Origin: Escherichia phage vB_EcoM_SA35RD
Sequence record: OL960577.1
DNA length: 64,000 nucleotides
Reading direction: 5' to 3' (one strand)
Shown here: positions 10,018 through 45,151 of the stretch, piece by piece
How positions within the stretch are numbered: the first letter of the stretch is position 1
Layout of the letters: each line of letters starts with the position of its first letter
Translations under genes and position numbers: made by a program
The notes under the pieces: generated by a model
Seen by the model: only the letters and a program-made list of their open reading frames with translations
Databases searched by the model: none
Told to the model about the DNA's origin: nothing

Positions 10018-10054
10018 ATTATTTTCCTCGGTTATTTTATTATCCAACGAGAGA

Positions 10055-10083
10055 ATTATACTCATCTCTCAAGAGTTTGTATA
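10055..10083 (-). promoter_or_regulatory. early promoter cassette (-35 TATACA, 17 nt, -10 TATAAT) with inverted repeat GAGAGA/TCTCTC around -10
   Basis: Read directly; near-identical copy at 40640..40668. Confidence 0.5.
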
Positions 10084-10323
10084 TTATTTTTTAAGCATGA
10101 AAAGTAAGTAATTTGTATCACGTGGAGTAATATCAACACCCATATCAAAGACGCCTTTATAGATTGGGTATTTGTTTTCGGTTGTATCGAAGCTGAAACT
10201 ATTTCCATCACAACTAACAGTAATAACATCTGTTAAAATGTCATACTCAATCCTAACAATTGAATCCCCAATTTTAACGTCGAGGTGTTTTTTGAATTTG
10301 ATAAAATCTAATTCTTGGGCCAT
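10084..10323 (-). CDS. hypothetical protein (79 aa)
   Basis: Track ORF. Confidence 0.45.
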   Translation of the reverse strand: MAQELDFIKFKKHLDVKIGDSIVRIEYDILTDVITVSCDGNSFSFDTTENKYPIYKGVFDMGVDITPRDTNYLLFMLKK

Positions 10324-10386
10324 GATATTTTACTCATTTTAAGACGATAGGAAGATAATAACATGTCTTCCTATCGTTGTACATTA

Positions 10387-10599
10387 TTAACCGAACTTTT
10401 TAGCGCCTTTCCAGCCTTCATACATAACTGCACAAGTCAATAGTACAGCGTGCTGGCATTCTTTGTATTTGTAAACCCAGAACCAGCGTAAGAAGTCTTC
10501 ATCCTCAACGCCGTTGAGTTTCATATTGGCAAAGAATTCTGCACGTTCTTCACGAAGCTTTTGCGATAACATAGATTCAGGATTCATTTTGTGTTCCAC
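10387..10599 (-). CDS. hypothetical protein (70 aa)
   Basis: Track ORF. Confidence 0.4.
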   Translation of the reverse strand: MEHKMNPESMLSQKLREERAEFFANMKLNGVEDEDFLRWFWVYKYKECQHAVLLTCAVMYEGWKGAKKFG

Positions 10600-10718
10600 G
10601 CCCCATTTTCATCGATGAACTTAATCCAGTCATTTACAGACCATTTAGTTGTATCACCCTTTGGATTAACATTTAAAGTGTATAATCCCTGCTTAAAAAG
10701 CATTCGTTTGATATTCAT
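10584..10718 (-). CDS. hypothetical small protein
   Basis: Track ORF 10584..10811 trimmed to internal Met to remove overlap with next ORF. Confidence 0.3.
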   Translation of the reverse strand: MNIKRMLFKQGLYTLNVNPKGDTTKWSVNDWIKFIDENGAWNTK

Positions 10719-10725
10719 AATTTCC

Positions 10726-11019
10726 TCAACTGTAACGATAACATTCGTTAGCTTTACGTTTGGCTTCAGTATGAGAAGTATTATAATCATAATCTTCTTT
10801 ACTGTAAACATCTTTTTTCAACTTACGAACTTCTTTGCGGAGTTGTCGATTCATTTCATTCTTGACTTCAGAATCAACGCCTTTCATACGTTTCCATTTA
10901 TCTGAGCGGAAGATGTTTTCAACCATGTCTTTGTGGCTAACACCATCAGGAGCTTTACGCTTACCAAAATAGTCATAATCACGAACTTTCAAATCTTTAC
11001 GACGATATGTTTTACCCAT
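10726..11019 (-). CDS. hypothetical basic protein (about 97 aa)
   Basis: Track ORF 10726..11046; Lys/Arg-rich; start trimmed to MGKTYRR. Confidence 0.4.
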   Translation of the reverse strand: MGKTYRRKDLKVRDYDYFGKRKAPDGVSHKDMVENIFRSDKWKRMKGVDSEVKNEMNRQLRKEVRKLKKDVYSKEDYDYNTSHTEAKRKANECYRYS

Positions 11020-11026
11020 AAGTACC

Positions 11027-11275
11027 TCAGAGGTTGATCGATACAACGCGTTTGATAAAATTCACTTCACTTACTGAAAGGTCTTTAAGACCGATTGATT
11101 CTAAACGCTGAGTAAGCGTCAACATCGGGATATAATCCCATTGAGTTTTATTTGCTTGATAAGTACGAACGCCATTAGCAATTTCAACATGCAAATCGGA
11201 AATGGTAATGAATACCGGATGCTCGTCATTAACTTTAAGGGTTAGAACAACCTTCTTTGAATCTAAACTAATCAT
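11027..11275 (-). CDS. hypothetical protein (82 aa)
   Basis: Track ORF. Confidence 0.45.
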   Translation of the reverse strand: MISLDSKKVVLTLKVNDEHPVFITISDLHVEIANGVRTYQANKTQWDYIPMLTLTQRLESIGLKDLSVSEVNFIKRVVSINL

Positions 11276-11616
11276 GGCTTAATTTCCTTCGCAATTGAAC
11301 AGAAGATACTACGGTCACAAAGCATTTCACCAATTTCTGGATATTTGATTGAACGGTACCAAACATCCAGGCTTGAAATTCTGGTTATCCGTACTGCATT
11401 ACCATTGACAGAATAATACCGGTCAACCTTAATTTCTTTATCTTCAATTGTCATTTTATTTTCCTCTATAGTAGATGGTTTAATCTTAACACATTTATTG
11501 AGGATGTAAACTGTTTTATGAAAATATTTTTTGATTTGAGAGGGGCACAAGGAGATAGTGAAGTGAAGATTCCAATGGATTATATTAGAAATGAGATAAA
11601 GAAGACCAGGCGGCAC
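11272..11616 (-). CDS. hypothetical protein (114 aa)
   Basis: Track ORF. Confidence 0.45.
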   Translation of the reverse strand: MPPGLLYLISNIIHWNLHFTISLCPSQIKKYFHKTVYILNKCVKIKPSTIEENKMTIEDKEIKVDRYYSVNGNAVRITRISSLDVWYRSIKYPEIGEMLCDRSIFCSIAKEIKP

Positions 11617-11620
11617 CTGG

Positions 11621-16124: not shown

Positions 16125-16252
16125 AATAATCTCTTCCCATCTCCATATCAATTAATTCATTTATTGAAGGTTCATCATAACACGTTTCTTCGTCGTTGTA
16201 AACTGTTTCGACGTCTGGCTCGACTGTCTCCCATCGAGCCGAATACCATGGC

Positions 16253-17275: not shown

Positions 17276-17580
17276 TATAATGTTCTCTCAAATTTGTGGA
17301 AGCATTTACGGCATTTCAATTTCAAGTTATCACTGGTCCAGTTAACCAGTTGGACTTGGATAGTTCCACATTCCGGACATGGATGTTTTGCTGCCGATTT
17401 GGCAGCATTTTCACGTCGTTCAACCATTTTCATTATTTCGTTCCATGCCGGAGGAACGAACTCTTCTTCACCATGAATTTTATCTCGCTGAACAAATTCA
17501 ATCTTTGAACTATCATCAATAAACTTAACTAAGCCATGATTAGTGCTCATATCAATATCCTCTAGAAGACGTAGGTTCAT
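17275..17580 (-). CDS. hypothetical Zn-ribbon protein (101 aa)
   Basis: CPECG...CRKCFHKF four-Cys motif. Confidence 0.5.
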   Translation of the reverse strand: MNLRLLEDIDMSTNHGLVKFIDDSSKIEFVQRDKIHGEEEFVPPAWNEIMKMVERRENAAKSAAKHPCPECGTIQVQLVNWTSDNLKLKCRKCFHKFERTL

Positions 17581-18527
17581 TATAACACCTCAATGGCATT
17601 TCGTAAACCATCCGCTTTCGCGTTCAGAGCTTTTAACGATTTAGTCTGTTCTTTAATCTGGGCTTCGACTTCTTTAAGACGAGATTTGAGATATTCACGT
17701 TCTTCGCTCAAGTTGTCAACTTTTTCTACTTTAGGTTCTTTAATAGTCTTAAGTTTATACTCGTTAGGGTTCTTCAACTTAATTTGAATGCGAGAACTGA
17801 ATAACATCGAACCGTTATCTTCGGTTTCGTCATACATTTCTACTACGTCCATGATTCTTAACATCATGCGAAGTTTATAAGACAGCGAACGAACGGTTTT
17901 ATTGTGCTTCTTAATTTCTTCAGCTTTCATGGTGCCGAGATTACGTGAGTAGTAATAAGGAACCTGGATATCAATTGACAATGATGCGTTACCATTACCT
18001 GTTGGTTTGAATACTGCAGTAACCCAATCTTTAACATGAACTTTATTTGTACGATCATCGCCACCAGTGAATAATTTACGAGAATGTTTAAAAAGCATAT
18101 TCACTTGGTTATTGAATTCACAAGCAAATTTATCAGCAAATTTAGTTTCAGGAATGGTAGATAACCAATCAGCCAAATGAGTCTTTTTAACATCATTAAC
18201 AATAGTGAATTCAACCAAATCGGTTTTAGATGTCACAGATTTAATAAAGCTCGGCTTCATAAAGTTTTTAATGTTATCGCGAGCTACAGTAGAAGATAAT
18301 AAACGAGAACGTTTGAACCATTGAAGCAGCGTCCCTAATGAATGAGAATATGCATTTTGAGTATCTTTACAGATATGATTTTCTTGGCCTGTGTATGTAA
18401 GAAAATCACGAAGAATACTATAAACCACACCTTTATGTGGAACATCAGTCCAAGCACCAGTAGCACGTTGAGCGTGAGCGTTAGCGATAAGACCGGCAAA
18501 GTATTCAATGTAATGTGAACGTGTCAT
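17580..18527 (-). CDS. hypothetical protein (315 aa)
   Basis: Track ORF; C-terminal coiled coil; own early promoter. Confidence 0.55.
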   Translation of the reverse strand: MTRSHYIEYFAGLIANAHAQRATGAWTDVPHKGVVYSILRDFLTYTGQENHICKDTQNAYSHSLGTLLQWFKRSRLLSSTVARDNIKNFMKPSFIKSVTSKTDLVEFTIVNDVKKTHLADWLSTIPETKFADKFACEFNNQVNMLFKHSRKLFTGGDDRTNKVHVKDWVTAVFKPTGNGNASLSIDIQVPYYYSRNLGTMKAEEIKKHNKTVRSLSYKLRMMLRIMDVVEMYDETEDNGSMLFSSRIQIKLKNPNEYKLKTIKEPKVEKVDNLSEEREYLKSRLKEVEAQIKEQTKSLKALNAKADGLRNAIEVL

Positions 18528-18545
18528 AATATTTTCCTCTCGTTA

Positions 18546-18575
18546 AGATAGGTTCATTATACTCCAACCATCCTT
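18546..18575 (-). promoter_or_regulatory. early promoter cassette (-35 GTTTAC, 17 nt, -10 TATAAT) with CAACCA-agga-TGGTTG hairpin in spacer
   Basis: Read directly. Confidence 0.55.
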
Positions 18576-18589
18576 GGTTGTAAACTGAT

Positions 18590-19549
18590 TTATGATTTTA
18601 ATGCATTCATTGCGTTAAAAAGTTTAGAGTACTGCAACTGGAGATTGGTCACCACCTGTTGAGCATCACGAAGCTTAGCTTGTGCTTTGTCAAGTTCAAC
18701 GGACAGTTGGTCTACAGTAGCCTTGATTTGGTTGTAATGATAATCTTCGGCCGGAAGAAGGTCATTAGAAACATTTAGTTTTACTGCCGACAGTTTGCAC
18801 ACATTTGGCAAACCTTTAAACATACCAGATTGTGCTGGAGAATATGCGCCTAGAACCTCTGCATTACCGACTGGTGTTGCTGTAATATTGCCTTCAAACA
18901 ATGCATTTTCCTTTTTAAGATTTTGATAGTATTCAGAGTCTTTGTGCCACCATGGCGCAGGAACCTTTTTACCAATAGATACACGAGCTTGGATAGCGAT
19001 ATGGCCCTTATTCTTGATAGGGTCGATAATATTAAGCTCACGAGAATAAATTGCTTTAATCTGGTGGATATTATCACCTAAAACTTCCAACGCTTGGTGA
19101 AATACACGAGCAACGTTATCATTCTTAGGTTTATACGTAAGAGTGAACTCATTCTCACTGATAACCATGATTTCCAACTTATCATAAGTATATTTCAAAT
19201 GTTTCATGTTAATTGCTTGAGGACGAATACGAGAAGCAATGGCCATCAGATTGTTAAGGTTATTCCGGAACTGCTTAGCGAAATATTGTCCTTCACCGCC
19301 AATACAAAAATTACGAAGTTTCTGTTTGGCCAATAAACGGCTGAACTCACCATTTTTAATGAACTCTTTAACGGGTGTGTTAGTAACACATTCAAATTGA
19401 GTAAACTTACGAGAATTAATCCCATAATACGAACAGATTTCCTCAATCTCTTCAGGAGTCTTTACAGGCATACGGATAGGATTAGGTCCTGGAGTATATG
19501 CGTTCGAGGTAAATTCTTTGATAAGTTCTCTACGTGTAATAAAAGCCAT
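18590..19549 (-). CDS. hypothetical protein (319 aa)
   Basis: Track ORF; C-terminal coiled coil. Confidence 0.55.
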   Translation of the reverse strand: MAFITRRELIKEFTSNAYTPGPNPIRMPVKTPEEIEEICSYYGINSRKFTQFECVTNTPVKEFIKNGEFSRLLAKQKLRNFCIGGEGQYFAKQFRNNLNNLMAIASRIRPQAINMKHLKYTYDKLEIMVISENEFTLTYKPKNDNVARVFHQALEVLGDNIHQIKAIYSRELNIIDPIKNKGHIAIQARVSIGKKVPAPWWHKDSEYYQNLKKENALFEGNITATPVGNAEVLGAYSPAQSGMFKGLPNVCKLSAVKLNVSNDLLPAEDYHYNQIKATVDQLSVELDKAQAKLRDAQQVVTNLQLQYSKLFNAMNALKS

Positions 19550-19575
19550 TTTATATTCCTCATGTTGAAAAATTT

Positions 19576-19604
19576 ATTATACTCCAACCATCCTTGGTTG
19601 TACA
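19576..19604 (-). promoter_or_regulatory. early promoter cassette (-35 TGTACA, 17 nt, -10 TATAAT), same spacer hairpin
   Basis: Near-identical 28-nt core to 18546..18575. Confidence 0.55.
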
Positions 19605-20600
19605 TCATTCCTTAAGAAGTTTTACTACCTGAATAAGATTAGCTCGTTCTGTTTTATTTTTACCATTTAAGCCTGCTAATCGTGAGATTTCATCGTCAGT
19701 CTGTTGAATAGTTACATTAAGTTCGTTAATCAAAGCTTCAAAGTATTTGATTTGCTCAGCATGTTTTGATTCAAATTTCTGAACCGGAATAACGTCTTGG
19801 TTTAGTTCATCAATAAGGTCTTTAAGAGCATCTTCTTGGTTGATATCATATTCAACTTCTTTTATTTCTTCAACGAGCTCGTCTTTATATCTAACGTCTT
19901 TTAGTCCTGGTGCTGGTCCTGAAATCTCTTCTTTAAGAGTACAAACATATCCAATACGGTATCCAATGCCGTCTCGCTTGATATCAACTTCGTCGATAAA
20001 TCCACAATGTTTAAGCCCGGAGCCGATTATGTCAAAATATCCTTGACGTCGTCCTTCAAACGTTACACGAACTACTAAGACAGTTTTACCTGCAACCTTT
20101 TGAAGCTCACATTTATAAAAGTCAGTTGAACCTGAATAACGTGGATGAGTTTTAAAGTTCATCTGACGATCTAGGCCCATTTGTAAGCGTGCTGTTACGG
20201 CCATAAAACGTGTTTGGTTCTCGTTAAGATGAGCAACAATCCATTTCAAAGGCATTTTACACTGTTCACGGCCGAACAAATCGGTACGTCCTAAATTACG
20301 CAGGATATTGTTAGAGTTAATCATCGACAGAACGTTAAGTTTATTCAGCGCGCTGAAGATTCCATCAGCCATTGATTTTCCATAACCTTTACACGCTTTA
20401 ATAAGTGCTCGCGGCAGATTAGTATAGATTTCAGACGGCATATGAAAATCAAATTTACTAACCAGTAATTGATGAACTTGGATAGCAATTTGTTCATAAT
20501 TAAGTGCTCTGCGATCGTTATGGTCTTTAAACCACACTTTAATCTGTGAAGCACATAAACCGTTAATTTCATGTTTTACCGCATCAGATGTAATGCTCAT
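19605..20600 (-). CDS. hypothetical protein (331 aa)
   Basis: Track ORF. Confidence 0.55.
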   Translation of the reverse strand: MSITSDAVKHEINGLCASQIKVWFKDHNDRRALNYEQIAIQVHQLLVSKFDFHMPSEIYTNLPRALIKACKGYGKSMADGIFSALNKLNVLSMINSNNILRNLGRTDLFGREQCKMPLKWIVAHLNENQTRFMAVTARLQMGLDRQMNFKTHPRYSGSTDFYKCELQKVAGKTVLVVRVTFEGRRQGYFDIIGSGLKHCGFIDEVDIKRDGIGYRIGYVCTLKEEISGPAPGLKDVRYKDELVEEIKEVEYDINQEDALKDLIDELNQDVIPVQKFESKHAEQIKYFEALINELNVTIQQTDDEISRLAGLNGKNKTERANLIQVVKLLKE

Positions 20601-20635: not shown

Positions 20636-20664
20636 ATTATAACCCGTCCTTGGGTAAAGCGTTT
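20636..20664 (-). promoter_or_regulatory. probable early promoter (-10 TATAAT) with AACCC-aaggac-GGGTT hairpin
   Basis: Read directly; -35 weak. Confidence 0.4.
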
Positions 20665-21190
20665 ATGCGTGAACCGTCTTTAAACGTTCTTCAAATTTCC
20701 GAAGAGTACTAATACGTTCTGCTTTCTGTTTTGTATAGTTTGCAATACGTTCTGAAGTGAGAGCGTATCGTTCGTTTACTGTTTCTTTCATGAAGTCAGG
20801 GATTTCACGAGAAGCTTTAATTTCATCAAACTTATCGAGTACTGCCTGGTCTTCAGCGATTAAATTTTCGTACATCTCGATATCTTTCTTGATAAACTCG
20901 ATATCTTCCTGGGTTACTTTGGATAAACGAGATGCTTTATCCTTTTTGTACTGCTCGTTAGTTTCACGAGACCAGAATAATGTACGTTTTTTGTTGGTGT
21001 TTTTGTAGACTTCCACAATTCCAACTGAATCGATGATAACGATCCAATTCCAGCGAGATTTGAAAATCTGTCCTCCGTCCACGGTAATCTCGTTACCATA
21101 AGCAATGTCATTAAAGAACTTACTTTGTGCTTCAGATTTAAATTTACCGTCGTTATAATTTACCAGGTTGAAAATATCTTTAGCGTTCAT
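20663..21190 (-). CDS. hypothetical protein (175 aa)
   Basis: Track ORF; GGAGG RBS. Confidence 0.55.
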   Translation of the reverse strand: MNAKDIFNLVNYNDGKFKSEAQSKFFNDIAYGNEITVDGGQIFKSRWNWIVIIDSVGIVEVYKNTNKKRTLFWSRETNEQYKKDKASRLSKVTQEDIEFIKKDIEMYENLIAEDQAVLDKFDEIKASREIPDFMKETVNERYALTSERIANYTKQKAERISTLRKFEERLKTVHA

Positions 21191-21217
21191 GTTTTACCTC
21201 CAGTAGTTGATAGGTCT

Positions 21218-21246
21218 ATAATAACATAACTATAGACCTTGTAAAC
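21218..21246 (-). promoter_or_regulatory. early promoter cassette (-35 GTTTAC, 17 nt, -10 TATTAT) with AGGTCTATA/TATAGACCT inverted repeat
   Basis: Read directly. Confidence 0.5.
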
Positions 21247-22675: not shown

Positions 22676-22692
22676 TTCGTTTCGATAGGTCT

Positions 22693-25372: not shown

Positions 25373-25400
25373 TTTGTTCTCCATTTGTTTTGGTAGGATT

Positions 25401-33210: not shown

Positions 33211-33237
33211 AATTTCCTCCAAGTAGTTGATGAATGT

Positions 33238-33267
33238 ATAGTATCAAAACCCTTGGAGGAAGTAAAC
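33238..33267 (-). promoter_or_regulatory. early promoter cassette (-35 GTTTAC, -10 TACTAT) upstream of denV
   Basis: Read directly. Confidence 0.45.
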
Positions 33268-35929: not shown

Positions 35930-36235
35930 TTATTTTCCTCGACATTCTTTAATGAAATTTTCTAGATTGGTAGATTCAATAGCTTTTTTACGAGCTTCTG
36001 CGTGTTCTTCTTCGGACAATTTACGTTTATAATTGACCCAGACATTATGGTCGAAACCAGTCGTGGCATATAATAACAATGCTCCAACGAATAGCAAAAA
36101 CGGCGATAAGAATACAAAACCAGGAACACCATCCATATCGTAAGCCTTTTGTAATACTGCAACAGAAAGAGTTGCGTAAAAAGGTGATGCAAGTATTGTT
36201 AAAAGACCAATTCGATTGGTTTCTGTTAATTTCAT
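35930..36235 (-). CDS. hypothetical membrane protein (101 aa), C-terminal ENFIKECR tail
   Basis: Two hydrophobic spans. Confidence 0.5.
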   Translation of the reverse strand: MKLTETNRIGLLTILASPFYATLSVAVLQKAYDMDGVPGFVFLSPFLLFVGALLLYATTGFDHNVWVNYKRKLSEEEHAEARKKAIESTNLENFIKECRGK

Positions 36236-36266
36236 AATATTCTCCTCATGTTTTAATAGGACTACT

Positions 36267-36296
36267 ACTATAACATAGTCCTATCAGTTTGTACAC
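36267..36296 (-). promoter_or_regulatory. early promoter cassette (-35 GTGTAC, -10 TATAGT) with TAGGACTA inverted repeat
   Basis: Read directly. Confidence 0.5.
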
Positions 36297-36497
36297 TTAT
36301 TTTGACATTTCTTCGATGTCACGACGATACCCATCACGAACTTCACGAAGAGCTTCAAGGCCACACATAGGCTCGATACCAGTAATGTGAACTTGATTAA
36401 TCTGATACTCTACATCTTCTAACTGAGCGAAAACATAACGACGTTCTGCTGCACAACCAGGTTTAGCTTTACCGAAACGTTTATTCAAAGTAGTCAT
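36297..36497 (-). CDS. hypothetical protein (about 66 aa)
   Basis: Track ORF 36297..36515 uses GTG; ATG at 36497 follows GGAGAT RBS. Confidence 0.45.
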   Translation of the reverse strand: MTTLNKRFGKAKPGCAAERRYVFAQLEDVEYQINQVHITGIEPMCGLEALREVRDGYRRDIEEMSK

Positions 36498-36535
36498 TTT
36501 TATATCTCCATTCACTCATTTGTTTTGATAGGTCT

Positions 36536-36565
36536 ATAGTATCAACAACTACAGACCTTGTAAAC
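36536..36565 (-). promoter_or_regulatory. early promoter cassette (-35 GTTTAC, -10 TACTAT)
   Basis: Read directly. Confidence 0.5.
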
Positions 36566-37562: not shown

Positions 37563-37814
37563 TTAAATTTCACGACATGCGATATTATATTCATCCCAGA
37601 GGTCATCATGTGAAGCCTCTACCAATGGAACGATTGTACCGTTTATGTCTTCATTATAAGGGCAAATTGTACAGTGCGCATCTTCGAATCGGATGCCTTT
37701 GTGTTCAGATTTTTTATAACGCATATCGAATATCTTTGCAAACTTTTCACGAGTAATGGTTTTACCAACCACTTTGGTTCCGATACTTTCGTAATAAATC
37801 ATTGTGGACTCCAT
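37563..37814 (-). CDS. hypothetical Cys/His-containing protein (about 80 aa)
   Basis: HCTICPYNED motif; start 37814 or 37802. Confidence 0.45.
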   Translation of the reverse strand: MESTMIYYESIGTKVVGKTITREKFAKIFDMRYKKSEHKGIRFEDAHCTICPYNEDINGTIVPLVEASHDDLWDEYNIACREI

Positions 37815-37830
37815 TTGTTTTGATAGGACT

Positions 37831-37860
37831 ACTATAACATAGCCCTATCTTGTTGTAAAC
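37831..37860 (-). promoter_or_regulatory. early promoter cassette (-35 GTTTAC, -10 TATAGT)
   Basis: Read directly. Confidence 0.5.
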
Positions 37861-38353: not shown

Positions 38354-38659
38354 TTAGCACAACGCAGAAGACGAAACCCAAGCACCTTCAGTAATAACGT
38401 AACCATTACCTTCACGCTTAACATCGCCACCATTATTTTCAATTTCATCTTTCATCCACTGGGATACGATTTCACCCTTAGGATAATAAGTACGACCGCT
38501 ACCATAATCACCTACAGAAAATGATACGGCATATTGGTCTGCGATCTTTGTTGCTTCTTCTTCGATACGTTCAGCTTGATTCAGAAGTTTATAAATTGCA
38601 TCTGAAGCGGATTTGGCATTATTAAACTCTGGTACTTTAATTTCAATAATCTTACTCAT
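38354..38659 (-). CDS. hypothetical protein (101 aa), GWVSSSxxC-tail family
   Basis: Ends EGAWVSSSALC. Confidence 0.45.
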   Translation of the reverse strand: MSKIIEIKVPEFNNAKSASDAIYKLLNQAERIEEEATKIADQYAVSFSVGDYGSGRTYYPKGEIVSQWMKDEIENNGGDVKREGNGYVITEGAWVSSSALC

Positions 38660-39015
38660 TTTCTACATTCCTTAATAAAGTTTTCGATTGTTTCATTTTC
38701 ACGTCTAGCTAGGAGTTCATTATAACTAATCATTTGAGAAGCGTAAACCTTTTTATTTTTCTTGTTATGGTTTATAAAATCGTAGTAAAAATAGACTACA
38801 GTACAAAATGATGCGATGGATGCAAAGGCTTGGGTATACCGTAAGTCCTGCCATTGGTCTGTGAATCCACCAGTGTTCCCTATAAATCCTAACACAACGC
38901 CGTCAATAAGAAATCCAACTAATCCAAAGGCAAATCCCATGCCAATACTCATAATAAAAATTAGAATGTTCTCACCAAGAGAAGGCCATACGGTTAAGAG
39001 TTGAGGCTTTTGCAT
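38656..39015 (-). CDS. hypothetical membrane protein (119 aa), C-terminal ENFIKECRK tail
   Basis: Two or three hydrophobic spans. Confidence 0.5.
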   Translation of the reverse strand: MQKPQLLTVWPSLGENILIFIMSIGMGFAFGLVGFLIDGVVLGFIGNTGGFTDQWQDLRYTQAFASIASFCTVVYFYYDFINHNKKNKKVYASQMISYNELLARRENETIENFIKECRK

Positions 39016-40003: not shown

Positions 40004-40597
40004 TTATTTCAAAGAGTTAATATATTCTTGTACATCAGCAGAAGTGGTTTCGACACCTGCTGGAGTGCCATTGAACGTTTCAACCCGAGTCAGAGTGTCT
40101 TCGATATCAACCTTAGTCAGTGCAGCGATTTCAATTACATCATCGGCCGTAGAGATACCAAGGGCATTAGCTGCTCGAGTTTCACGAATGTATTCGAGTT
40201 TGATTGCCAGATTCTGACGAGCATCATCAAGTTCAACCACCTTACGAGCAATTTCAATTCGCATAGCGGCATACCCGTCAGCTTTTGTATTAAGTTGTTC
40301 GGCAGTTCGACGATACAGAAGACCAAGCTTAGCATGCATGGTAACATCTTGTCCTTCAGCCAGGAGCTTACGAATTTCACGTTCCTTAGAAGCGGCTTGC
40401 TTGTTCTTTTCAATAACAAGTTCGCGAATACGTTTTTCTTCATTAATAGATTTAACAGAAGCCGTTTTTAGTTCTTTGATTTGGGTAATCAACTTATCTG
40501 CAGCTGCGTTATACTGTTCTTCGACAGTCAGATTTTTAGCCATAGCAGTACCCAGTTTAGTGCGAATGAATTCAACAAGTTTCTTCAGTGTGTTCAT
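40004..40597 (-). CDS. hypothetical coiled-coil protein (about 197 aa)
   Basis: Track ORF 40004..40612 uses TTG; ATG at 40597 follows AGGT RBS; architecture vaguely PspA-like. Confidence 0.5.
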
Positions 40598-40639
40598 ATT
40601 ATTACCTTTCAATTGGTGGTTTATTATCCAACGAGAGCA

Positions 40640-40668
40640 TTATACTCTGCTCTCAAGAGTTTGTACAC
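40640..40668 (-). promoter_or_regulatory. early promoter cassette (-35 TGTACA, 17 nt, -10 TATAAT) with GAGAGC/GCTCTC inverted repeat
   Basis: Near-duplicate of 10055..10083 with compensatory A:T to C:G change. Confidence 0.5.
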
Positions 40669-40919
40669 TTATTTGTACGAATTAATAATCTCTTCCATTT
40701 TATCCAGAACATGGATATCGATTATACGAGGAAGTGCCGAAAGATTAGAACCGTCGAAAGATTTAAGGTCTTCCAAAATAATATTTTCAATGGCCTTTAA
40801 AGCTTCCGCAGATTCTGATGCAGAATTAAATTCAGGAATTTCTCCAAAAAGACGTAAGAATGAACCAAAGTATTCTGCGGCGATTTCTTTAGCTTGTTCG
40901 ATATCAGACTTAAACATTT
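40669..40919 (-). CDS. hypothetical acidic protein (about 83 aa)
   Basis: Track ORF 40669..40950; start set to MFKSD after GAGGAAA RBS. Confidence 0.45.
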
Positions 40920-40945
40920 TGTTTTCCTCATTTGTTGGTGGAGTA

Positions 40946-40974
40946 ATCATATCACCATCCTTGGCGTTTGTACA
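40946..40974 (-). promoter_or_regulatory. early promoter cassette (-35 TGTACA, 17 nt, -10 TATGAT) with CACCA-agga-TGG hairpin
   Basis: Read directly. Confidence 0.45.
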
Positions 40975-41202
40975 TTATTTTTTAATCAAGTTGACATAAA
41001 ATTCTGCATCTTCAGGGTGCATGCCTTCGCAGTATTCTTCAACCATGAACTTCTTAACAGCTTCATAAGGACCACTCAGATTAAGCTCAGTTGTCCAGAA
41101 CTTGGAATCTTGGACTGAATCGATATGAACTTCAGGGTGTCGGTTGCGAATAACTTCTTCGGTGTATTCATAATCAACGACATCAATACTAACTTTAGCC
41201 AT
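40975..41202 (-). CDS. hypothetical protein (75 aa)
   Basis: Track ORF. Confidence 0.45.
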   Translation of the reverse strand: MAKVSIDVVDYEYTEEVIRNRHPEVHIDSVQDSKFWTTELNLSGPYEAVKKFMVEEYCEGMHPEDAEFYVNLIKK

Positions 41203-41443
41203 TTTATTTTCCTCTTGATTTGATGTGATTACTATAACATAAACTTACTTAGATGTAAATTATTTCAACGTCACCTTTAGCTGCTTTATAACCTTCAGCC
41301 CAAGATACAACAGAGTTTTTATCCGAGGATTCAAATTCAGGCATTGGACTTTCACCAATATTCACACAGTATGTTTCTTCATTTTCATCGAACCAAATAA
41401 TTAAAGTAGTCATTTTGTTTACTCCTCTGTAGTTGATAAGTCT

Positions 41444-41472
41444 ATAGTATCACCATCCTTGGTGCTTGTACA
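41444..41472 (-). promoter_or_regulatory. early promoter cassette (-35 TGTACA, 17 nt, -10 TACTAT) with CACCA-agga-TGGTG hairpin
   Basis: Read directly; a short ORF (about 40-50 codons, roughly 41290..41413) follows. Confidence 0.45.
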
Positions 41473-41480
41473 TCATTATT

Positions 41481-41786
41481 TTATTTTTTCCAACTCAACA
41501 ACTTGTAATGTCCTTCATTCGTACGTGGTTTATCCCAAGAAATACTAATATATGATTCGCTGTCAATAGAAGTCGCCGGGTTTTTCTCTACCGTAAGACC
41601 TTCACTTTCCAGCCATTCAATAGTATTTGCGCATAAATCGGAAGAACACCTCATCGGGAACCGGCAAGATTTTTCACCTTTAGATGCTGCATCGTACATC
41701 TTTTCCAAAATACGCTTTTGCACGTTTTTAAAAATAGTTTCAGCAGATTCTTCAGATTTTTTATTCAGTTCAGTGTAAAGACTCAT
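41481..41786 (-). CDS. hypothetical protein (101 aa)
   Basis: Track ORF. Confidence 0.45.
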   Translation of the reverse strand: MSLYTELNKKSEESAETIFKNVQKRILEKMYDAASKGEKSCRFPMRCSSDLCANTIEWLESEGLTVEKNPATSIDSESYISISWDKPRTNEGHYKLLSWKK

Positions 41787-41814
41787 AACATTTTCCTCTA
41801 TGGTTGATAAGTCT

Positions 41815-41843
41815 ATAGTATCATGTCCTTAGAAGAAGTAAAC
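41815..41843 (-). promoter_or_regulatory. early promoter cassette (-35 GTTTAC, 17 nt, -10 TACTAT)
   Basis: Read directly. Confidence 0.5.
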
Positions 41844-41875: not shown

Positions 41876-41905
41876 CAAAAGGCCCCAACCATAAGGAAGG
41901 GGCAT
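41876..41905 (-). terminator. rho-independent terminator, copy 2 of repeated hairpin element
   Basis: Same GCCCC...GGGGC hairpin plus T-run as 26156..26185. Confidence 0.55.
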
Positions 41906-43358: not shown

Positions 43359-43874
43359 TTAAAGCAAATCAATCATTTTAACAGTCGGCAAAACGATTTC
43401 TTCTTCAATATAAGCGAATTCAACACGTTCAACTACACGCAAGAAATCATAGTCGTAGTATTCAGAAGCATAGCCAAGAATATCAATAAGGCCTTTGGAT
43501 ACCTCATCACCTTTCACAAAGAACAGGTCGAATACACGGGCTTCGTCTTCTTCAGATTTATCGCCAAGGTCAACTTCAATACCAAAGACCTTTTTAATGA
43601 ATTCCGGCTGGAGCTGGTCAGAGAACAGTCCTTCAACCAGATATTCGTAGATAATAAGCGAGCAACGACCGAATGGCGTATTACCACAGTAACGTTCGGC
43701 TTTAGTGCTGGAATGACGACTCTTAAATTTCTTCAAGAGATATTTAAACTGTTGGAGCTCATGCTCTTCTACACCAAATAATGTTTTGGTTTTATAGTTG
43801 TCACCGTCATTTTCCCAAGTAGTGACATCAATTACGTAACCCTTAGGAATTGTACTGCCTAAACAAATATTCAT
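43359..43874 (-). CDS. hypothetical protein (171 aa)
   Basis: Track ORF. Confidence 0.5.
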   Translation of the reverse strand: MNICLGSTIPKGYVIDVTTWENDGDNYKTKTLFGVEEHELQQFKYLLKKFKSRHSSTKAERYCGNTPFGRCSLIIYEYLVEGLFSDQLQPEFIKKVFGIEVDLGDKSEEDEARVFDLFFVKGDEVSKGLIDILGYASEYYDYDFLRVVERVEFAYIEEEIVLPTVKMIDLL

Positions 43875-43878
43875 TTAC

Positions 43879-44169
43879 TCACCTTACCATATTAATGTAA
43901 TTATATTCAATGCAACGCAATTTCAAAGGATTCTTGAAAATATCATATTCAAGAGGGCCTTTTTCTGTTTCAATAAAGAAATCAAAGTTAACTGTGTTAA
44001 ATTTATCATCTTCACATAGTAATTTAACCTGTGAAGATGAACGGTCGATATAAACCTTTTCAACCTCAAAGTTAGTCAGAATACCGTAGTCATCGACTAG
44101 TGCTTTAGCTGCACGTTGATCGCTTTCATATCCATTCTCAATGGACGATACTTTAGCATAAAGAATCAT
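43879..44169 (-). CDS. hypothetical protein (96 aa)
   Basis: Track ORF. Confidence 0.45.
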   Translation of the reverse strand: MILYAKVSSIENGYESDQRAAKALVDDYGILTNFEVEKVYIDRSSSQVKLLCEDDKFNTVNFDFFIETEKGPLEYDIFKNPLKLRCIEYNYINMVR

Positions 44170-44561
44170 GAATGTTCCACCACTTCAAAAGTATGTGCAC
44201 TGACAATCTGGTACCAGTCAAAATTTTCTTCAGCATTTTTGTAGATTTCACGAAGAGCTTCAACAGTTTTTCCTGTAGCAACAAGGTCGTCAATACCACC
44301 AAGAGGATAACAGTCATAACCAGCAAACAGAAGGAAATTAATAGTTTCTGTAGGTTCTTGATGCAGTGTACCATTGTCATCGACTACTTCAAAGAACATA
44401 TAACCAGGCGATTTAGATTTAATCCAAGCCCATGCTTGAGCTGCTGAATCAAATGGTTTGCGTATCAAACGACAATCAGGATCTTTAGAAGGATTTGCTT
44501 CAAAATCCGCATATACGTGATATTTCATTTTACTCACCTTTTGCAATTTTATCCATAACAA
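44166..44561 (-). CDS. hypothetical protein (131 aa)
   Basis: Track ORF. Confidence 0.5.
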   Translation of the reverse strand: MLWIKLQKVSKMKYHVYADFEANPSKDPDCRLIRKPFDSAAQAWAWIKSKSPGYMFFEVVDDNGTLHQEPTETINFLLFAGYDCYPLGGIDDLVATGKTVEALREIYKNAEENFDWYQIVSAHTFEVVEHS

Positions 44562-44736
44562 TAGCGATTAAACCGATTAGAAATGCTACTACCAATGAGA
44601 TAGAATTTTCGGTTGTTGTCAGTAGTCCGCAAATGAATCCTACAAACATCGAAAAACTAAAAGCCATTGAAGCAATTACTACAGCAACATTACGAATCAG
44701 TTCAGCGCGTTTCATTTTATTTCTCCATTTACTCAT
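44530..44736 (-). CDS. hypothetical small membrane protein (about 61-68 aa)
   Basis: Two hydrophobic spans; start 44736 or 44715. Confidence 0.45.
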   Translation of the reverse strand: MSKWRNKMKRAELIRNVAVVIASMAFSFSMFVGFICGLLTTTENSISLVVAFLIGLIAIVMDKIAKGE

Positions 44737-44753
44737 TTTGTTTTGATAGGACT

Positions 44754-44783
44754 ACTATAACATAGTCCTATCGTGTTGTAAAC
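44754..44783 (-). promoter_or_regulatory. early promoter cassette (-35 GTTTAC, -10 TATAGT) with TAGGACTA inverted repeat
   Basis: Read directly. Confidence 0.5.
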
Positions 44784-44786
44784 TAC

Positions 44787-45074
44787 TTACAGAAGAGTTT
44801 TTGCAATAATTTTAAGCTGAGCTACAGAAATGTGCTTAGTTTTAAACAGTGCAGTCTCTTCAGCCGGAGAGATAACAATAGTAGCGCCATCTTTCTTAGC
44901 AGACCATCCATCCCCTAAGTAAACAGTACCTTTTACTTCTTCGCCGTCAACCAGACTAATCATTGGTTTACCCTCACGTCCTTTATTTGCTTTAATAACT
45001 TCGGAAGTAAGGGTTGCTTCGGTTAGAGTAGAAACGTTAGCATCAGGTGATATAAATTCTTTATAGGTTTTCAT
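44787..45074 (-). CDS. ipI: internal protein I (IPI-like)
   Basis: 95 aa; MKTYKEFIS leader; position next to 57B as in T4; body resembles IPI as I recall it. Confidence 0.7.
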   Translation of the reverse strand: MKTYKEFISPDANVSTLTEATLTSEVIKANKGREGKPMISLVDGEEVKGTVYLGDGWSAKKDGATIVISPAEETALFKTKHISVAQLKIIAKTLL

Positions 45075-45108
45075 TTTATTTCCTTGAGGTCGTTTATTTG
45101 ATAGGATG

Positions 45109-45138
45109 ATAGTAACACGTCATCATCCTTATGTAAAC
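45109..45138 (-). promoter_or_regulatory. early promoter cassette (-35 GTTTAC, -10 TACTAT) upstream of ipI
   Basis: Read directly. Confidence 0.5.
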
Positions 45139-45151
45139 TGTTTTGTGAAAA

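What the first reader, a model, noticed from the sequence alone, without database searches (positions are those of the whole stretch)
10040..45150. At least 19 copies of a modular early-promoter cassette with inverted repeats built into the promoter
Upstream of many minus-strand ORFs the same architecture recurs: a -35 box GTTTAC or TGTACA, a 17-18 nt spacer, a -10 box (TATAAT, TATTAT, TACTAT or TATAGT), then often a shared leader (CTATCAAAACAAATGAG...GGAG). Copies are at about 10055, 18546, 19576, 20636, 21218, 22693, 25401, 26116, 29769, 33238, 36267, 36536, 37831, 40640, 40946, 41444, 41815, 44754 and 45109. Within each cassette there is an inverted repeat: either a hairpin with an AAGGA loop inside the spacer (CAACCA-agga-TGGTTG, CACCA-agga-TGGTG) or arms flanking the -10 (AGGTCTATA/TATAGACCT, TAGGACTA/TAGTCCTA). 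Because one arm lies upstream of the -10, the repeat cannot be a simple RNA hairpin in the transcript; it is more likely a DNA-level element such as a binding site for a dimeric factor or a recombination substrate. This resembles the promoter-early stem-loop cassettes proposed to drive modular gene shuffling in T4-type phages, but the density here and the placement of the -10 inside the loop are worth direct study.
Basis: partly seen in the sequence, partly recalled or inferred. Interest (0 to 1): 0.6.

Follow-up and report, generated by a model that had tools for sequence, protein, structure and literature searches.

The report
Early promoters nested inside RNA hairpins
This RB69-like T4-type phage carries about 27 strong early promoters, most of them built inside a short inverted repeat that most likely folds only in RNA reading through from upstream genes, and the repeated promoter units also mark where single genes have been gained or lost.

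Summary
The window comes from an RB69-like (Mosigvirus) coliphage. Its minus strand carries at least 27 T4-type early promoters (GTTTAC or TGTACA, 17-18 nt, TAnnnT), where about 2.6 pattern matches are expected by chance.

About two thirds contain an inverted repeat whose 5' arm lies in the spacer.

The DNA-level interpretation is not supported. Arm sequences differ between copies and between orthologous promoters in seven phage genera, yet stay complementary. Mismatches are G.T far more often than A.C on the sense strand. The repeats are common where the upstream gene's stop codon abuts the -35, and rare where a canonical terminator lies upstream or the promoter sits inside a translated ORF.

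The best reading is an RNA hairpin that forms only in read-through transcripts. Class c hides the ribosome-binding site, as in T4 genes e, soc, 49 and I-TevI. Classes a and b probably act as intercistronic stability elements.

Separately, homology between cassettes explains four one-gene indels relative to phage PhAPEC2, as in the published PeSL model. I rate this a compact variant of a known kind.

The parts
45074..45138 (-). Early promoter cassette upstream of the 57B-like gene. Class b hairpin AGGATGAT/ATCATCCT at 45103-45129.
   Evidence: (z=-2.2). The T4 orthologue has different arms, TGATGAGGTA/TACCTCATCA.
44715..44783 (-). Early promoter cassette upstream of the ipI-like gene. Class b hairpin GATAGGACTA/TAGTCCTATC at 44745-44772.
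   Evidence: (z=-4.4)
41786..41843 (-). Early promoter cassette. Class c stem TTCTTCTA/TAGAGGAA (one U.G pair) at 41793-41837 covers the Shine-Dalgarno sequence.
   Evidence: SD unpaired probability falls from 0.63 to 0.00 in read-through RNA.
41882..41903 (-). GC-rich terminator-like hairpin GCCCCTTCCTTATGGTTGGGGC followed by a T run, upstream of promoter 41843. Classical PeSL arrangement; a repeated copy of the one at 26160-26183.
41413..41473 (-). Early promoter cassette. Class a spacer hairpin CACCA-agga-TGGTG at 41451-41464.
41202..41260 (-). Early promoter cassette without a significant inverted repeat. The upstream ORF runs 12 nt into the promoter.
40917..40975 (-). Early promoter cassette. 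Class a spacer hairpin CGCCA-agga-TGGTG (one G.U pair) at 40953-40966.
40597..40668 (-). Early promoter cassette. Class b hairpin GAGAGCA/TGCTCTC at 40633-40654.
   Evidence: The paralogue at 10084 carries the compensated arms GAGAGA/TCTCTC.
38659..38748 (-). Early promoter lying inside the upstream ORF. No inverted repeat.
37802..37860 (-). Early promoter cassette. Class b hairpin GATAGGGCTA/TAGTCCTATC (one G.U pair) at 37822-37849.
   Evidence: (z=-3.6)
36497..36565 (-). Early promoter cassette. Class b hairpin AGGTCTGTAGT/ACTATAGACCT (one G.U pair) at 36530-36558.
   Evidence: (z=-3.0)
36235..36296 (-). Early promoter cassette. Class b hairpin ATAGGACTA/TAGTCCTAT at 36256-36284.
   Evidence: (z=-3.3)
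33210..33267 (-). denV early promoter cassette. Class c stem TTCCTCCAAG/CTTGGAGGAA at 33214-33261 covers the Shine-Dalgarno sequence.
   Evidence: z=-4.0; SD unpaired 0.43 to 0.00. Orthologous stems with other arms occur in T4 and Kosakonia phage 305.
32466..32526 (-). Early promoter cassette without a significant inverted repeat.
31766..31821 (-). Early promoter inside a long hairpin (-20 kcal/mol) that pairs the -35/spacer CTCC with a downstream GGAG.
   Evidence: z=-3.6
29740..29797 (-). regB early promoter cassette. Class c 14-bp perfect stem TTCTCCTCTAGTTG/CAACTAGAGGAGAA at 29747-29791 covers the Shine-Dalgarno sequence.
   Evidence: z=-3.7; SD unpaired 0.69 to 0.00. Orthologous stems with other arms occur in T4 (two G.U pairs), KM16 and Kosakonia phage 305.
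26088..26144 (-). Early promoter cassette. Class c stem TTCTCCTC/GAGGAGAA at 26093-26138.
   Evidence: SD unpaired 0.67 to 0.17
26160..26183 (-). Terminator-like hairpin AGCCCCTTCCTTATGGTTGGGGCT followed by TTTT, upstream of promoter 26144.
25372..25430 (-). Early promoter cassette. Class b hairpin GGTAGGA..CTA/TA..TCCTACC at 25387-25424.
   Evidence: (z=-3.5)
22654..22721 (-). Early promoter cassette with no embedded repeat, preceded by the terminator-like hairpin GGGACCTTCGGGTCCC at 22752-22767.
21190..21246 (-). Early promoter cassette. Class b hairpin AGGTCTATA/TATAGACCT at 21212-21239.
   Evidence: The T4 orthologue has a class c stem instead.
20636..20664 (-). MotA-type middle promoter, not an early one. 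It has the box AAACGCTTTA, a spacer hairpin ACCC-aaggac-GGGT at 20642-20655, and TATAAT at 20636-20641.
   Evidence: Positional orthologue of T4 PnrdC.7, TSS 53325 (PMC2988021 Table 1).
19549..19605 (-). Early promoter cassette. Class a spacer hairpin CAACCA-agga-TGGTTG at 19585-19600.
18527..18585 (-). Early promoter cassette. Class a spacer hairpin CAACCA-agga-TGGTTG at 18565-18580.
   Evidence: The T4 orthologue has CCACA-agga-TGTGG.
17550..17608 (-). Early promoter overlapping the end of the upstream ORF. No inverted repeat.
16174..16203 (-). Early promoter with no embedded repeat. A GC-rich hairpin lies in the 49-nt gap upstream.
11454..11511 (-). Early promoter cassette. Weak class c stem TCCTCAATA/TATAGAGGA at 11462-11504. 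The terminator GACCAGGTGCCGCCTGGTC at 11604-11622 lies upstream.
   Evidence: SD unpaired 0.70 to 0.01
10780..10809 (-). Early promoter inside a coding region. No promoter-spanning repeat.
10323..10384 (-). Early promoter cassette. Class b 12-bp perfect hairpin ACGATAGGAAGA/TCTTCCTATCGT at 10344-10377.
   Evidence: (z=-3.9)
10017..10084 (-). Early promoter cassette. Class b hairpin GAGAGA/TCTCTC at 10049-10070.

Best explanation
Each copy is a sigma-70-dependent early promoter of the T4 type, followed by a short leader and ribosome-binding site.

Genes here are packed so tightly that the upstream gene's stop codon usually touches the -35. The hairpin that would otherwise sit between genes is therefore written into the free positions of the promoter. 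Its 5' arm lies in the 17-18 nt spacer. Its 3' arm lies in the spacer, just after the -10, or in the leader.

The hairpin does not form in RNA started at that promoter, because that RNA lacks the 5' arm. It forms only in sense-strand RNA that reads through from an upstream promoter.

In class c the 3' arm is the Shine-Dalgarno sequence. The gene (regB, denV and others) would then be translated only from transcripts made at its own early promoter and silenced on read-through RNA. This is the logic known for T4 genes e, soc, 49 and I-TevI, but with an early promoter inside the hairpin instead of a late one.

In classes a and b the hairpin leaves the ribosome site free. It most likely acts as an intercistronic RNA element, protecting the 3' end of the upstream message or the 5' end of the processed downstream message. 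In that sense it is a compact counterpart of the terminator hairpin found where space allows.

Independently of the hairpin, sequence homology between cassettes lets the phage recombination system delete or insert the gene lying between two cassettes.

Shown here: the promoter pattern, the complementarity, the covariation, the strand asymmetry, the link to intergenic spacing and the breakpoints.

Inferred: that the promoters fire, where transcription starts, that the hairpins fold in vivo, and their effect on translation or RNA stability.
For: 1. Promoter identity. There are 28 pattern hits where 2.6 are expected, 24 of them on the gene strand. The region is orthologous and collinear with T4 early genes and their promoters. 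Nolan et al. 2006 predicted 57 such promoters in RB69 (PMC1524935).

2. The structure exceeds chance and is specific to each promoter.
- Mean z is -1.53 for the promoters and -0.17 for controls.
- In the swap test no permutation out of 2000 reached the native value, both in the window and in 98 unique promoters.

3. Covariation.
- Orthologous promoters keep a stem with unrelated arms. For regB: TTCTCCTCTAGTTG / TTTTCCTCTTGACTG / TCTCCTGTAAG / ATCTCCTTTTAGT. For denV: TTCCTCCAAG / TCTCCTGTAG / ATCTCCGTTTGT.
- In a register-aligned set of class b stems, 10 of 12 pairs show changes on both sides. The covariation score is 0.743 against 0.312 for shuffles (this set was selected for having stems).

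4. Sense-strand RNA signature in 155 promoters from 10 loci and 7 genera.
- G.T versus A.C mismatches are 22:8 (p=0.016), and 19:4 for strong stems (p=0.0026). Base composition predicts a 0.51 share.
- The sense strand folds 1.70 kcal/mol more stably than the antisense strand (Wilcoxon p=1.2e-4).

5. Dependence on read-through.
- Strong embedded stems occur in 70% of 50 promoters whose upstream stop codon abuts the -35.
- They occur in 12% of 25 promoters with 35 nt or more of upstream space. Most of these carry a GC-rich hairpin in the gap, often followed by a T run.
- They occur in 11% of 19 promoters lying inside a translated upstream ORF.
- The differences are significant (p=6e-7 and 3e-5).

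6. Predicted Shine-Dalgarno accessibility falls from 0.43-0.70 to 0.00-0.17 in read-through RNA for the class c sites and stays similar for most class b sites.

7. Read-through of early transcripts into downstream genes is established for T4 (PMC2988021). Hairpins that hide the ribosome site and contain an internal promoter are established for e, soc, 49 and I-TevI (PMC3014915).

8. Recombination. Twelve of 24 breakpoint edges against PhAPEC2 lie at cassettes, where 2.15 are expected (P<0.0005). Four are precise cassette-to-cassette one-ORF indels.
Against: - No transcript data were available. Start sites, read-through levels and folding in vivo are all assumed by analogy with T4.
- The embedded hairpins are followed by A-rich rather than U-rich sequence, so they cannot be ordinary intrinsic terminators. 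The proposed role for classes a and b is therefore the weakest step.
- The G.T versus A.C counts are small, and some stems are related by descent. After collapsing near-identical stems the count is 20:7 (p=0.019).
- A conserved AGG in the spacer and CCT at -3 to -1 could partly be promoter elements in their own right.
- The loop AAGGA of the class a hairpins is conserved while the stems vary. That hints at sequence-specific recognition, which a simple stability role does not explain.
- Promoters inside ORFs may lack stems only because of coding constraint.
Confidence: 0.6

Rival explanations
1. The inverted repeat is a DNA-level structure, a cruciform or hairpin, that marks the cassette for structure-specific recombination. 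This would be the active element behind PeSL-like gene shuffling.
For: - Breakpoints against PhAPEC2 concentrate at cassettes.
- Two tandem internal-protein promoters of phage TH57 carry reciprocally chimeric arms (GGG..CTC and GAG..CCC), as expected from an exchange within the loop.
- Arbiol et al. located one RB49 crossover in a PeSL loop (PMC2839356).
Against: - In the four clean indels the crossovers map to the shared -35 region or to the SD/ATG homology, not to the repeat. Ordinary homologous recombination is enough to explain them.
- A DNA structure should tolerate G.T and A.C equally, but the counts are 19:4 to 22:8.
- It gives no reason for the repeats to be rare when a terminator lies upstream.
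- Class c loops of 17-30 nt are poor cruciform substrates (established knowledge; not tested here).
Confidence: 0.12
2. The repeat is the binding site of a dimeric protein, for example a factor that shuts off early promoters.
For: - Dyad symmetry centred on the first bases of the -10 in many class b copies (register i+j=1 in 15 stems).
- How T4 early promoters are shut off is still unexplained (PMC2988021).
Against: - The half-sites have no common sequence beyond AGG/CCT. More than 15 unrelated arm pairs occur in one genome and among orthologues.
- The position of the 3' arm varies by 30 nt between classes.
- Swapped arms do not match.
- The mismatches are strand-asymmetric.
- Promoters inside ORFs lack the repeat yet keep full promoter consensus.
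Confidence: 0.05
3. The complementarity tunes the promoter itself. For example, it could ease melting around the -10 or alter spacer and discriminator geometry, and so belong to the extended T4 early-promoter consensus.
For: - T4 early promoters are known to have extra conserved positions outside the hexamers (PMC2988021).
- Nolan et al. noted a preference for C at -3 to -1 in RB69.
- G at spacer position -8 is invariant in the class b alignment.
Against: - Promoters with perfect hexamers but no repeat are common (17608, 38748, 32526).
- The repeat correlates with what lies upstream, a stop codon or a terminator, rather than with promoter quality.
- Class c arms reach the Shine-Dalgarno sequence, more than 20 nt past the inferred start site.
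- The G.U asymmetry points to RNA.
Confidence: 0.1
4. The repeats are non-functional by-products. They would arise by template-switch mutation or gene conversion between cassettes and simply be tolerated in free promoter positions.
For: - Within a genome, subsets of cassettes share identical arms. Examples are GATAGGACTA in four window copies and TGATGGGATA in several Gaprivervirus copies. This shows spread by duplication or conversion.
Against: - Stems persist at orthologous promoters across seven genera although the arm sequences have turned over completely.
- The strand asymmetry and the dependence on upstream context are not expected for neutral by-products.
Confidence: 0.1

Closest known systems
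PeSL (promoter-early stem-loop) cassettes of T4-type phages (Arbiol et al. 2010, PMC2839356; Comeau et al. 2014, PMC4122927)
   Same: A repeated unit made of a strong early promoter, a stem-loop and a Shine-Dalgarno sequence. It sits between small accessory genes and is associated with insertion, deletion and replacement breakpoints. Here 12 of 24 breakpoint edges lie at cassettes, and four are cassette-to-cassette one-gene indels. Four sites in the window (22721, 26144, 41843, 11511) have the classical layout, with a GC-rich hairpin upstream of the promoter.
   Different: In the published description the stem-loop lies upstream of the -35, and in RB49 it acts as a terminator (GGGG...CCCC). 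Here most stems are nested inside the promoter, are AT-richer, have no U tract, and in one class include the ribosome-binding site.
Early promoter with overlapping palindrome flanking internal-protein genes of T-even phages (Repoila et al. 1994, EMBO J 13:4181). Known to me from Arbiol 2010's summary and from my recollection of the abstract; the paper itself was not held.
   Same: A T4 early promoter combined with an AT-rich stem-loop of variable size, proposed to mediate shuffling of IP genes. The ipI, ipII and ipIII promoters of T4 and the ipI-like promoter of the window show exactly this.
   Different: It was described for two small IP loci and interpreted as recombination homology. Here the arrangement covers most intergenic early promoters across about 35 kb and seven genera, with evidence that the selected structure is RNA.
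Hairpins that hide the ribosome site and contain an internal promoter in T4 genes e, soc, 49 and I-TevI (reviewed in PMC3014915 section 29)
   Same: The 5' arm lies upstream of the proximal promoter's start site and the 3' arm covers the SD or AUG. Long transcripts are therefore translationally silent and proximal transcripts are open. Class c sites have this geometry: predicted SD accessibility falls from 0.43-0.70 to 0.00-0.17.
   Different: The internal promoter in the known cases is a late promoter (TATAAATA) and the logic delays expression. Here it is an early sigma-70 promoter, so the logic would restrict translation to the first minutes. No experimental test exists for these sites.
Intercistronic stabilising hairpins of bacterial polycistronic mRNAs (for example REP elements in malE-malF) and 5' stem-loops that protect against RNase E (ompA). 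Cited from established knowledge, not from papers read here.
   Same: A short stable hairpin just after a stop codon, with no U tract and not overlapping the next ribosome site. This matches classes a and b.
   Different: No sequence relationship, and no evidence here for processing or stabilisation. Placing the hairpin inside a promoter is not a feature of those elements.

Membership tests
T4-type early promoter (sigma-70 dependent) | -35 GTTTAC-like hexamer, 17-18 nt spacer, -10 TAnnnT | tested here: met
   28 exact pattern hits where 2.6 are expected. 27 curated copies.
T4-type early promoter (sigma-70 dependent) | A-rich UP-like region upstream of the -35 | tested here: met
   Read directly from the sequences (for example ttcacaaaaca, aaaaaataa). 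No statistical test was run.
T4-type early promoter (sigma-70 dependent) | Located upstream of, and co-oriented with, orthologues of T4 early genes | tested here: met
   Collinear with T4 nrdC to gene 57B. Orthologous promoters were found for regB, denV, ipI, 57B and nrdC.5/.9.
T4-type early promoter (sigma-70 dependent) | Transcription starts about 7 nt after the -10 immediately after infection | not testable with these tools
   Needs 5'-end mapping.
PeSL cassette | Strong early promoter plus Shine-Dalgarno sequence in a repeated intergenic unit | tested here: met
PeSL cassette | Stem-loop located just upstream of the promoter and able to terminate upstream transcription | tested here: not met
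   Met only at 22721, 26144, 41843 and 11511. In the other copies the stem is inside the promoter and is followed by A-rich sequence.
PeSL cassette | Association with insertion, deletion or replacement breakpoints between close relatives | tested here: met
   12 of 24 edges within 60 nt of a cassette where 2.15 are expected, P<0.0005. Crossovers are shown.
PeSL cassette | Formation of excised mini-circles | not testable with these tools
   Needs inverse PCR on infected cells or virions.
RBS-sequestering hairpin with internal promoter (T4 e/soc/49/I-TevI type) | SD and/or AUG paired in transcripts from upstream; the 5' arm is absent from the proximal transcript | tested here: met
   Class c sites 29797, 33267, 41843, 26144 and 11511. 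Predicted SD accessibility falls from 0.43-0.70 to 0.00-0.17. The geometry is shown.
RBS-sequestering hairpin with internal promoter (T4 e/soc/49/I-TevI type) | The internal promoter is a late promoter (TATAAATA) | tested here: not met
   The internal promoter is of the early -35/-10 type. TATAAATA occurs 8 times in the window, where 8.3 are expected, and none of these is in a cassette.
RBS-sequestering hairpin with internal promoter (T4 e/soc/49/I-TevI type) | Demonstrated block of translation on long transcripts | not testable with these tools
   Needs reporter fusions or toeprinting.
Intrinsic (Rho-independent) terminator | GC-rich hairpin immediately followed by a U tract | tested here: not met
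   Embedded stems are followed by sequences such as ATCAAAAC or GAGTATAAT. True terminator-like hairpins occur only in the longer gaps.
Palindromic operator for a dimeric DNA-binding protein | Conserved half-site sequence shared by the sites | tested here: not met
   Arms differ between copies and between orthologues. Swapped arms are not complementary.
Curated RNA families (Rfam 15) | Match at gathering score | tested here: not met
   Only the two tRNAs match in 9000-47000.

The most novel reading that the evidence does not exclude
T4-type phages follow a general design rule that the papers I could read do not describe. Nearly every intergenic early promoter is nested in an RNA hairpin that exists only in read-through transcripts. 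The fate of a gene's mRNA then depends on which promoter produced it: whether it is translated, cleaved by RegB at GGAG, or stabilised. For regB, denV and similar genes this would confine protein synthesis to the first minutes of infection. That would give a post-transcriptional route to early-gene shut-off, whose mechanism is still open.
Probability: 0.4. Interest if true: 0.65.

Novelty: new variant of a known kind. Interest (0 to 1): 0.5.

Why it matters
If the hairpins act on read-through RNA, promoter and post-transcriptional signal are encoded in the same 40-60 nt. That is an extreme case of overlapping information in a compact genome.

It would explain extra conserved positions in T4-type early-promoter logos. 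One example is the C preference at -3 to -1 noted for RB69.

It would extend the e/soc/49/I-TevI paradigm from late to early promoters.

It would offer a testable contribution to the unexplained rapid shut-off of early gene expression, notably for the tightly controlled RegB nuclease.

The breakpoint analysis also gives clean natural examples of cassette-to-cassette gain and loss of single accessory genes in RB69-like phages. This is useful for understanding, and for engineering, the accessory gene content of therapeutic T4-type phages.

Tried and rejected
- A generic sigma-70 promoter scan is uninformative here: 75 hits against 69 expected. Only the T4-specific pattern discriminates.
- Raw folding energies barely separate promoters from controls (-12.4 versus -10.7 kcal/mol, p=0.04), because the regions are AT-rich. 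Composition-corrected z-scores and the swap test were used instead.
- I considered the embedded stems as intrinsic terminators on either strand. I rejected this because no U tract follows the stem on the sense strand. On the antisense strand the U-rich complement of the UP element lies at least 7 nt from the stem.
- I considered late promoters inside the stems. TATAAATA is not enriched and is not in the cassettes.
- Rfam gives nothing but tRNAs.
- Three literature items were wanted but not held: Miller et al. 2003 (PMC150520), Repoila et al. 1994 (PMC395341), and the older Liebig and Rüger promoter papers (not searched for). I therefore cannot exclude an earlier description of promoter-embedded stems at regB, denV or genome-wide.
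- No T4 start-site or RNA 3'-end mapping paper turned up in the library.
- My automatic promoter scan misses some copies (44783, 41843, 36565, 31821 and 25430 in the window) because of start-codon ambiguity, so the pooled counts are conservative.
- Loci L003, L004 and L007 were fetched but never reached the scripting machine and were not analysed.
- The T4 versus JoYop breakpoint test is weaker (5 of 30 edges against 1.5 expected, P=0.016). By my reading of the T4 annotation, several of those differences fall at homing-endonuclease genes.

Full report
WHAT THE WINDOW IS

The window has 35-40% G+C. Genes run on the minus strand up to about 48.7 kb and on the plus strand after that. A 10-kb stretch is 96-97% identical to RB69-like coliphages: E. 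coli O157 typing phage 3, APCEc01, Shf125875 and PhAPEC2 (genus Mosigvirus). The flagged region is collinear with the T4 early region from nrdC through tk, vs, regB, denV, e, the tRNA genes, ipI and 57B to gene 1. Two tRNA genes lie at 43123-43279.

CHECKING THE OBSERVATION

All 19 listed sites show, on the minus strand, a -35 (GTTTAC or TGTACA), a 17-18 nt spacer, a -10 of the form TAnnnT, a short leader, a GGAG/GAGG-type Shine-Dalgarno sequence and an ATG.

The exact patterns are far above chance. They give 15, 6 and 7 hits where shuffles predict 0.90, 1.02 and 0.72. Twenty-four of the 28 hits are on the gene strand.

The list is incomplete. I curated 27 early promoters between 10017 and 45138.

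One listed site is of a different kind. The site at 20636 has no usable -35. It has AAACGCTTTA 13 nt from TATAAT, which fits a MotA box. It sits where T4 has the mapped middle promoter PnrdC.7.

THE INVERTED REPEATS

Folding each promoter from the -35 to 42 nt past the -10 gives a mean z-score of -1.53 against dinucleotide shuffles, with 9 of 27 below -3. For 150 random windows of the same strand the mean is -0.17, with 2.7% below -3 (Mann-Whitney p=1.5e-4).

Three arrangements occur. In all of them the 5' arm lies in the spacer.
- Class a: both arms in the spacer with an AAGGA loop (41473, 40975, 19605, 18585, and the middle promoter at 20636).
- Class b: the 3' arm starts in or just after the -10 and ends about where transcription should start (45138, 44783, 40668, 37860, 36565, 36296, 25430, 21246, 10384, 10084).
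- Class c: the 3' arm is the Shine-Dalgarno sequence (29797 with 14 perfect pairs, 33267, 26144, 41843, 11511, 31821).

Six promoters have no repeat.

IS THE COMPLEMENTARITY SPECIFIC OR JUST CONSENSUS?

I paired each promoter's spacer half with every other promoter's downstream half. Native pairs score 15.86 and swapped pairs 12.14 in the window, with 0 of 2000 permutations reaching the native value. For 98 unique promoters from seven loci the values are 15.67 and 11.85, again 0 of 2000. Each promoter therefore carries its own matched pair of arms.

RELATIVES

I fetched the same early region from nine other phages:
- T4 and JoYop (Tequatrovirus)
- PhAPEC2 (Mosigvirus)
- TH57 and TH44 (Gaprivervirus)
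- Klebsiella phage F48 (Marfavirus)
- Salmonella phage KM16 (Moonvirus)
- Kosakonia phage 305 (Kanagawavirus)
- Cronobacter phage Pet-CM3-4 (Karamvirus)

All show the same arrangements, with other arm sequences. Orthologous promoters keep a stem while the arms turn over.

The regB promoter:
- window: TTCTCCTCTAGTTG/CAACTAGAGGAGAA
- T4: TTTTCCTCTTGACTG/CAGTTAAGAGGAGAA, with two G.U pairs
- KM16: TCTCCTGTAAG/CTTACAGGAGA
- Kosakonia 305: ATCTCCTTTTAGT/ACTAAAAGGAGAT
- F48: a class b stem instead

The denV promoter:
- window: TTCCTCCAAG/CTTGGAGGAA
- T4: TCTCCTGTAG/CTACAGGAGA
- Kosakonia 305: ATCTCCGTTTGT/ACAAACGGAGAT

The 57B promoter:
- window: AGGATGAT/ATCATCCT
- T4: TGATGAGGTA/TACCTCATCA

Many class b stems share one register, with the dyad at the first bases of the -10. 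In an ungapped alignment of 15 such stems, 10 of 12 pairs change on both sides. The covariation score is 0.743, against 0.312 for shuffles (0 of 500) and 0.11-0.31 for slid partners. That set was chosen for having stems, so its percentage paired is not an independent test. The diversity of pair types is.

DNA OR RNA?

I found stems with a strand-symmetric score that penalises G.T and A.C equally. Interior mismatches in 155 promoters from 10 loci are G.T 22 versus A.C 8 (p=0.016). For stronger stems the count is 19 versus 4 (p=0.0026). After collapsing near-identical stems it is 20 versus 7 (p=0.019). Base composition predicts a G.T share of 0.51. The sense strand also folds on average 1.70 kcal/mol more stably than its complement (Wilcoxon p=1.2e-4, n=83). 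G.U pairs are tolerated in RNA, and on the opposite strand they become A.C mismatches. This points to sense-strand RNA.

WHICH RNA?

RNA started at the promoter lacks the 5' arm, so the only candidate is RNA reading through from upstream. Such read-through is a standard feature of T4 prereplicative transcription (PMC2988021).

This predicts that the repeat should be unnecessary where read-through RNA is not made, and useless where ribosomes translate across it. Both hold:
- Strong stems occur in 70% of 50 promoters whose upstream ORF stops within 15 nt of the -35.
- They occur in only 12% of 25 promoters with 35 nt or more of upstream space. Most of those carry a GC-rich hairpin in the gap, often followed by a T run.
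- They occur in 11% of 19 promoters that lie inside the upstream ORF.
- The differences are significant (p=6e-7 and 3e-5).

In the window the long-gap cases are 22721, 26144, 41843, 11511 and 16203. Embedded hairpin and upstream terminator are therefore alternatives. Because the stop codon usually abuts the -35, the only free positions for a hairpin are the spacer, the stretch after the -10 and the leader. That explains why the -10 ends up in the loop.

LIKELY FUNCTION

For class c, partition-function folding predicts the following drops in Shine-Dalgarno accessibility between RNA started at the site's own promoter and read-through RNA:
- 29797: 0.69 to 0.00
- 33267: 0.43 to 0.00
- 41843: 0.63 to 0.00
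- 11511: 0.70 to 0.01
- 26144: 0.67 to 0.17

This is the geometry established for T4 genes e, soc, 49 and I-TevI, where a late promoter sits inside the hairpin (PMC3014915 section 29). Here the internal promoter is early. The expected effect is to limit translation to transcripts made at the gene's own early promoter. That fits the reported tight control of regB. The same review states that RNA structure protects GGAG from RegB, so the structure could also affect cleavage.

For most class b sites the ribosome site stays open, and the stems lack a U tract. I infer an intercistronic stability or processing role. This is the least secure step. The conserved AAGGA loop of class a stems remains unexplained.

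RECOMBINATION

Comparison with PhAPEC2 gives 12 insertion, deletion or replacement events in 9-47 kb. Twelve of the 24 edges lie within 60 nt of a cassette, where 2.15 are expected (P<0.0005).

Four events remove or add exactly one small ORF between two cassettes: 10084-10377, 36296-36559, 40674-40966 and 41224-41407. The PhAPEC2 sequence is a hybrid of the two window cassettes. The junction lies in the shared -35 region in three cases and in the SD/ATG region in the fourth.

T4 against JoYop shows a weaker enrichment (5 of 30 edges against 1.5 expected, P=0.016). By my reading of the T4 annotation, several of those differences fall at homing-endonuclease genes.

This is the modular shuffling proposed for PeSLs (PMC2839356, PMC4122927). 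Homology between cassettes is enough to explain it, and the repeat itself is not implicated.

COMPARISON WITH WHAT IS KNOWN

- Early promoters of RB69 were predicted in 2006. Searches of that paper's text for hairpin, stem-loop, palindrome and inverted repeat found no such description (PMC1524935). Its remark that C is preferred at -3 to -1 is explained by the conserved CCT of the 3' arm.
- PeSLs are described with the stem-loop upstream of the promoter.
- Arbiol et al. note that Repoila et al. 1994 saw analogous elements at the IP loci, based on T4 early promoters with AT-rich stem-loops. From memory, that abstract speaks of an early promoter with an overlapping palindrome. The paper was not held.
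- The T4 genome review of 2003 was not held either.

The element is therefore a compact variant of a known kind. The following appear to be new relative to what I could read, but older literature may contain parts of it: the generality of the arrangement, the class that hides the ribosome site behind an early promoter, the RNA signature, and the trade-off with upstream terminators.

VERDICT

- The cassette and PeSL comparison is supported.
- The DNA-level reading of the repeat is not supported.
- Confidence in the RNA read-through explanation is about 0.6.
- Interest is 0.5.

Noticed in passing
window 20636-20664 (minus strand): The listed site at 20636 is a MotA-type middle promoter, the orthologue of T4 PnrdC.7. 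It has a spacer hairpin whose AAGGA loop is conserved while the stem differs: window ACCC/GGGT, T4 TACCA/TGGTA. The same loop occurs in the class a early promoters. A conserved loop on a variable stem suggests that something recognises the loop.
   Followed up: partly
window 26160-26183 and 41882-41903 (minus strand): Two near-identical copies of a terminator-like hairpin, (A)GCCCCTTCCTTATGGTTGGGGC followed by a T run. Each lies upstream of an early promoter with the same TTCT(C/T)C spacer start. This is a duplicated terminator-plus-promoter unit about 15.7 kb apart.
   Followed up: partly
window 10084-10377, 36296-36559, 40674-40966, 41224-41407: Four small ORFs (79, 72, 93 and 54 codons), each with its own promoter cassette. 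All are present here and precisely absent from phage PhAPEC2. The junctions lie in the -35 region or at the SD/ATG.
   Followed up: yes
L010 (Escherichia phage TH57) 16680 and 17014, plus strand: Two tandem promoters of internal-protein-like genes (MKTYQEFI...) carry reciprocally mismatched arms: TGATGGGATAGTT/AATTATCTCATCA and TGATGAGATAGTT/AATTATCCCATCA. This looks as if two matched hairpins had exchanged halves by a crossover in the loop.
   Followed up: no
window about 34040-34075 (minus strand): The leader of the lysozyme gene e contains AUCUCC...GGAGGU, pairing across the Shine-Dalgarno sequence. This is the known type of translational block described for T4 gene e. No exact TATAAATA lies in this stretch.
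   Followed up: no
window 31773-32438 and 41798-43137: Two replacement regions relative to PhAPEC2 (about 664 versus 665 nt, and 1338 versus 2481 nt, the second including the tRNA cluster). At least one edge of each lies in a promoter cassette. PhAPEC2 has three tRNA genes where the window has two.
   Followed up: partly
window, most cassettes (for example 44715-44783, 36497-36565, 22654-22721): Many leaders share ATCAAAACAAATGAG followed by GGAG in the Shine-Dalgarno sequence. GGAG is the RegB cleavage motif, so these early messages are candidate RegB targets. In class c sites the GGAG would be shielded in read-through RNA.
   Followed up: no
L006 (Klebsiella phage F48) 8110 and L009 (Salmonella phage KM16) 38095: The denV promoters of these two phages, from different genera, share an identical stem ATAGTAGCCT/AGGCTACTAT. 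It pairs the -10 region with the SD/AUG. This is a fourth geometry, in which the 5' arm overlaps the -10 hexamer.
   Followed up: no
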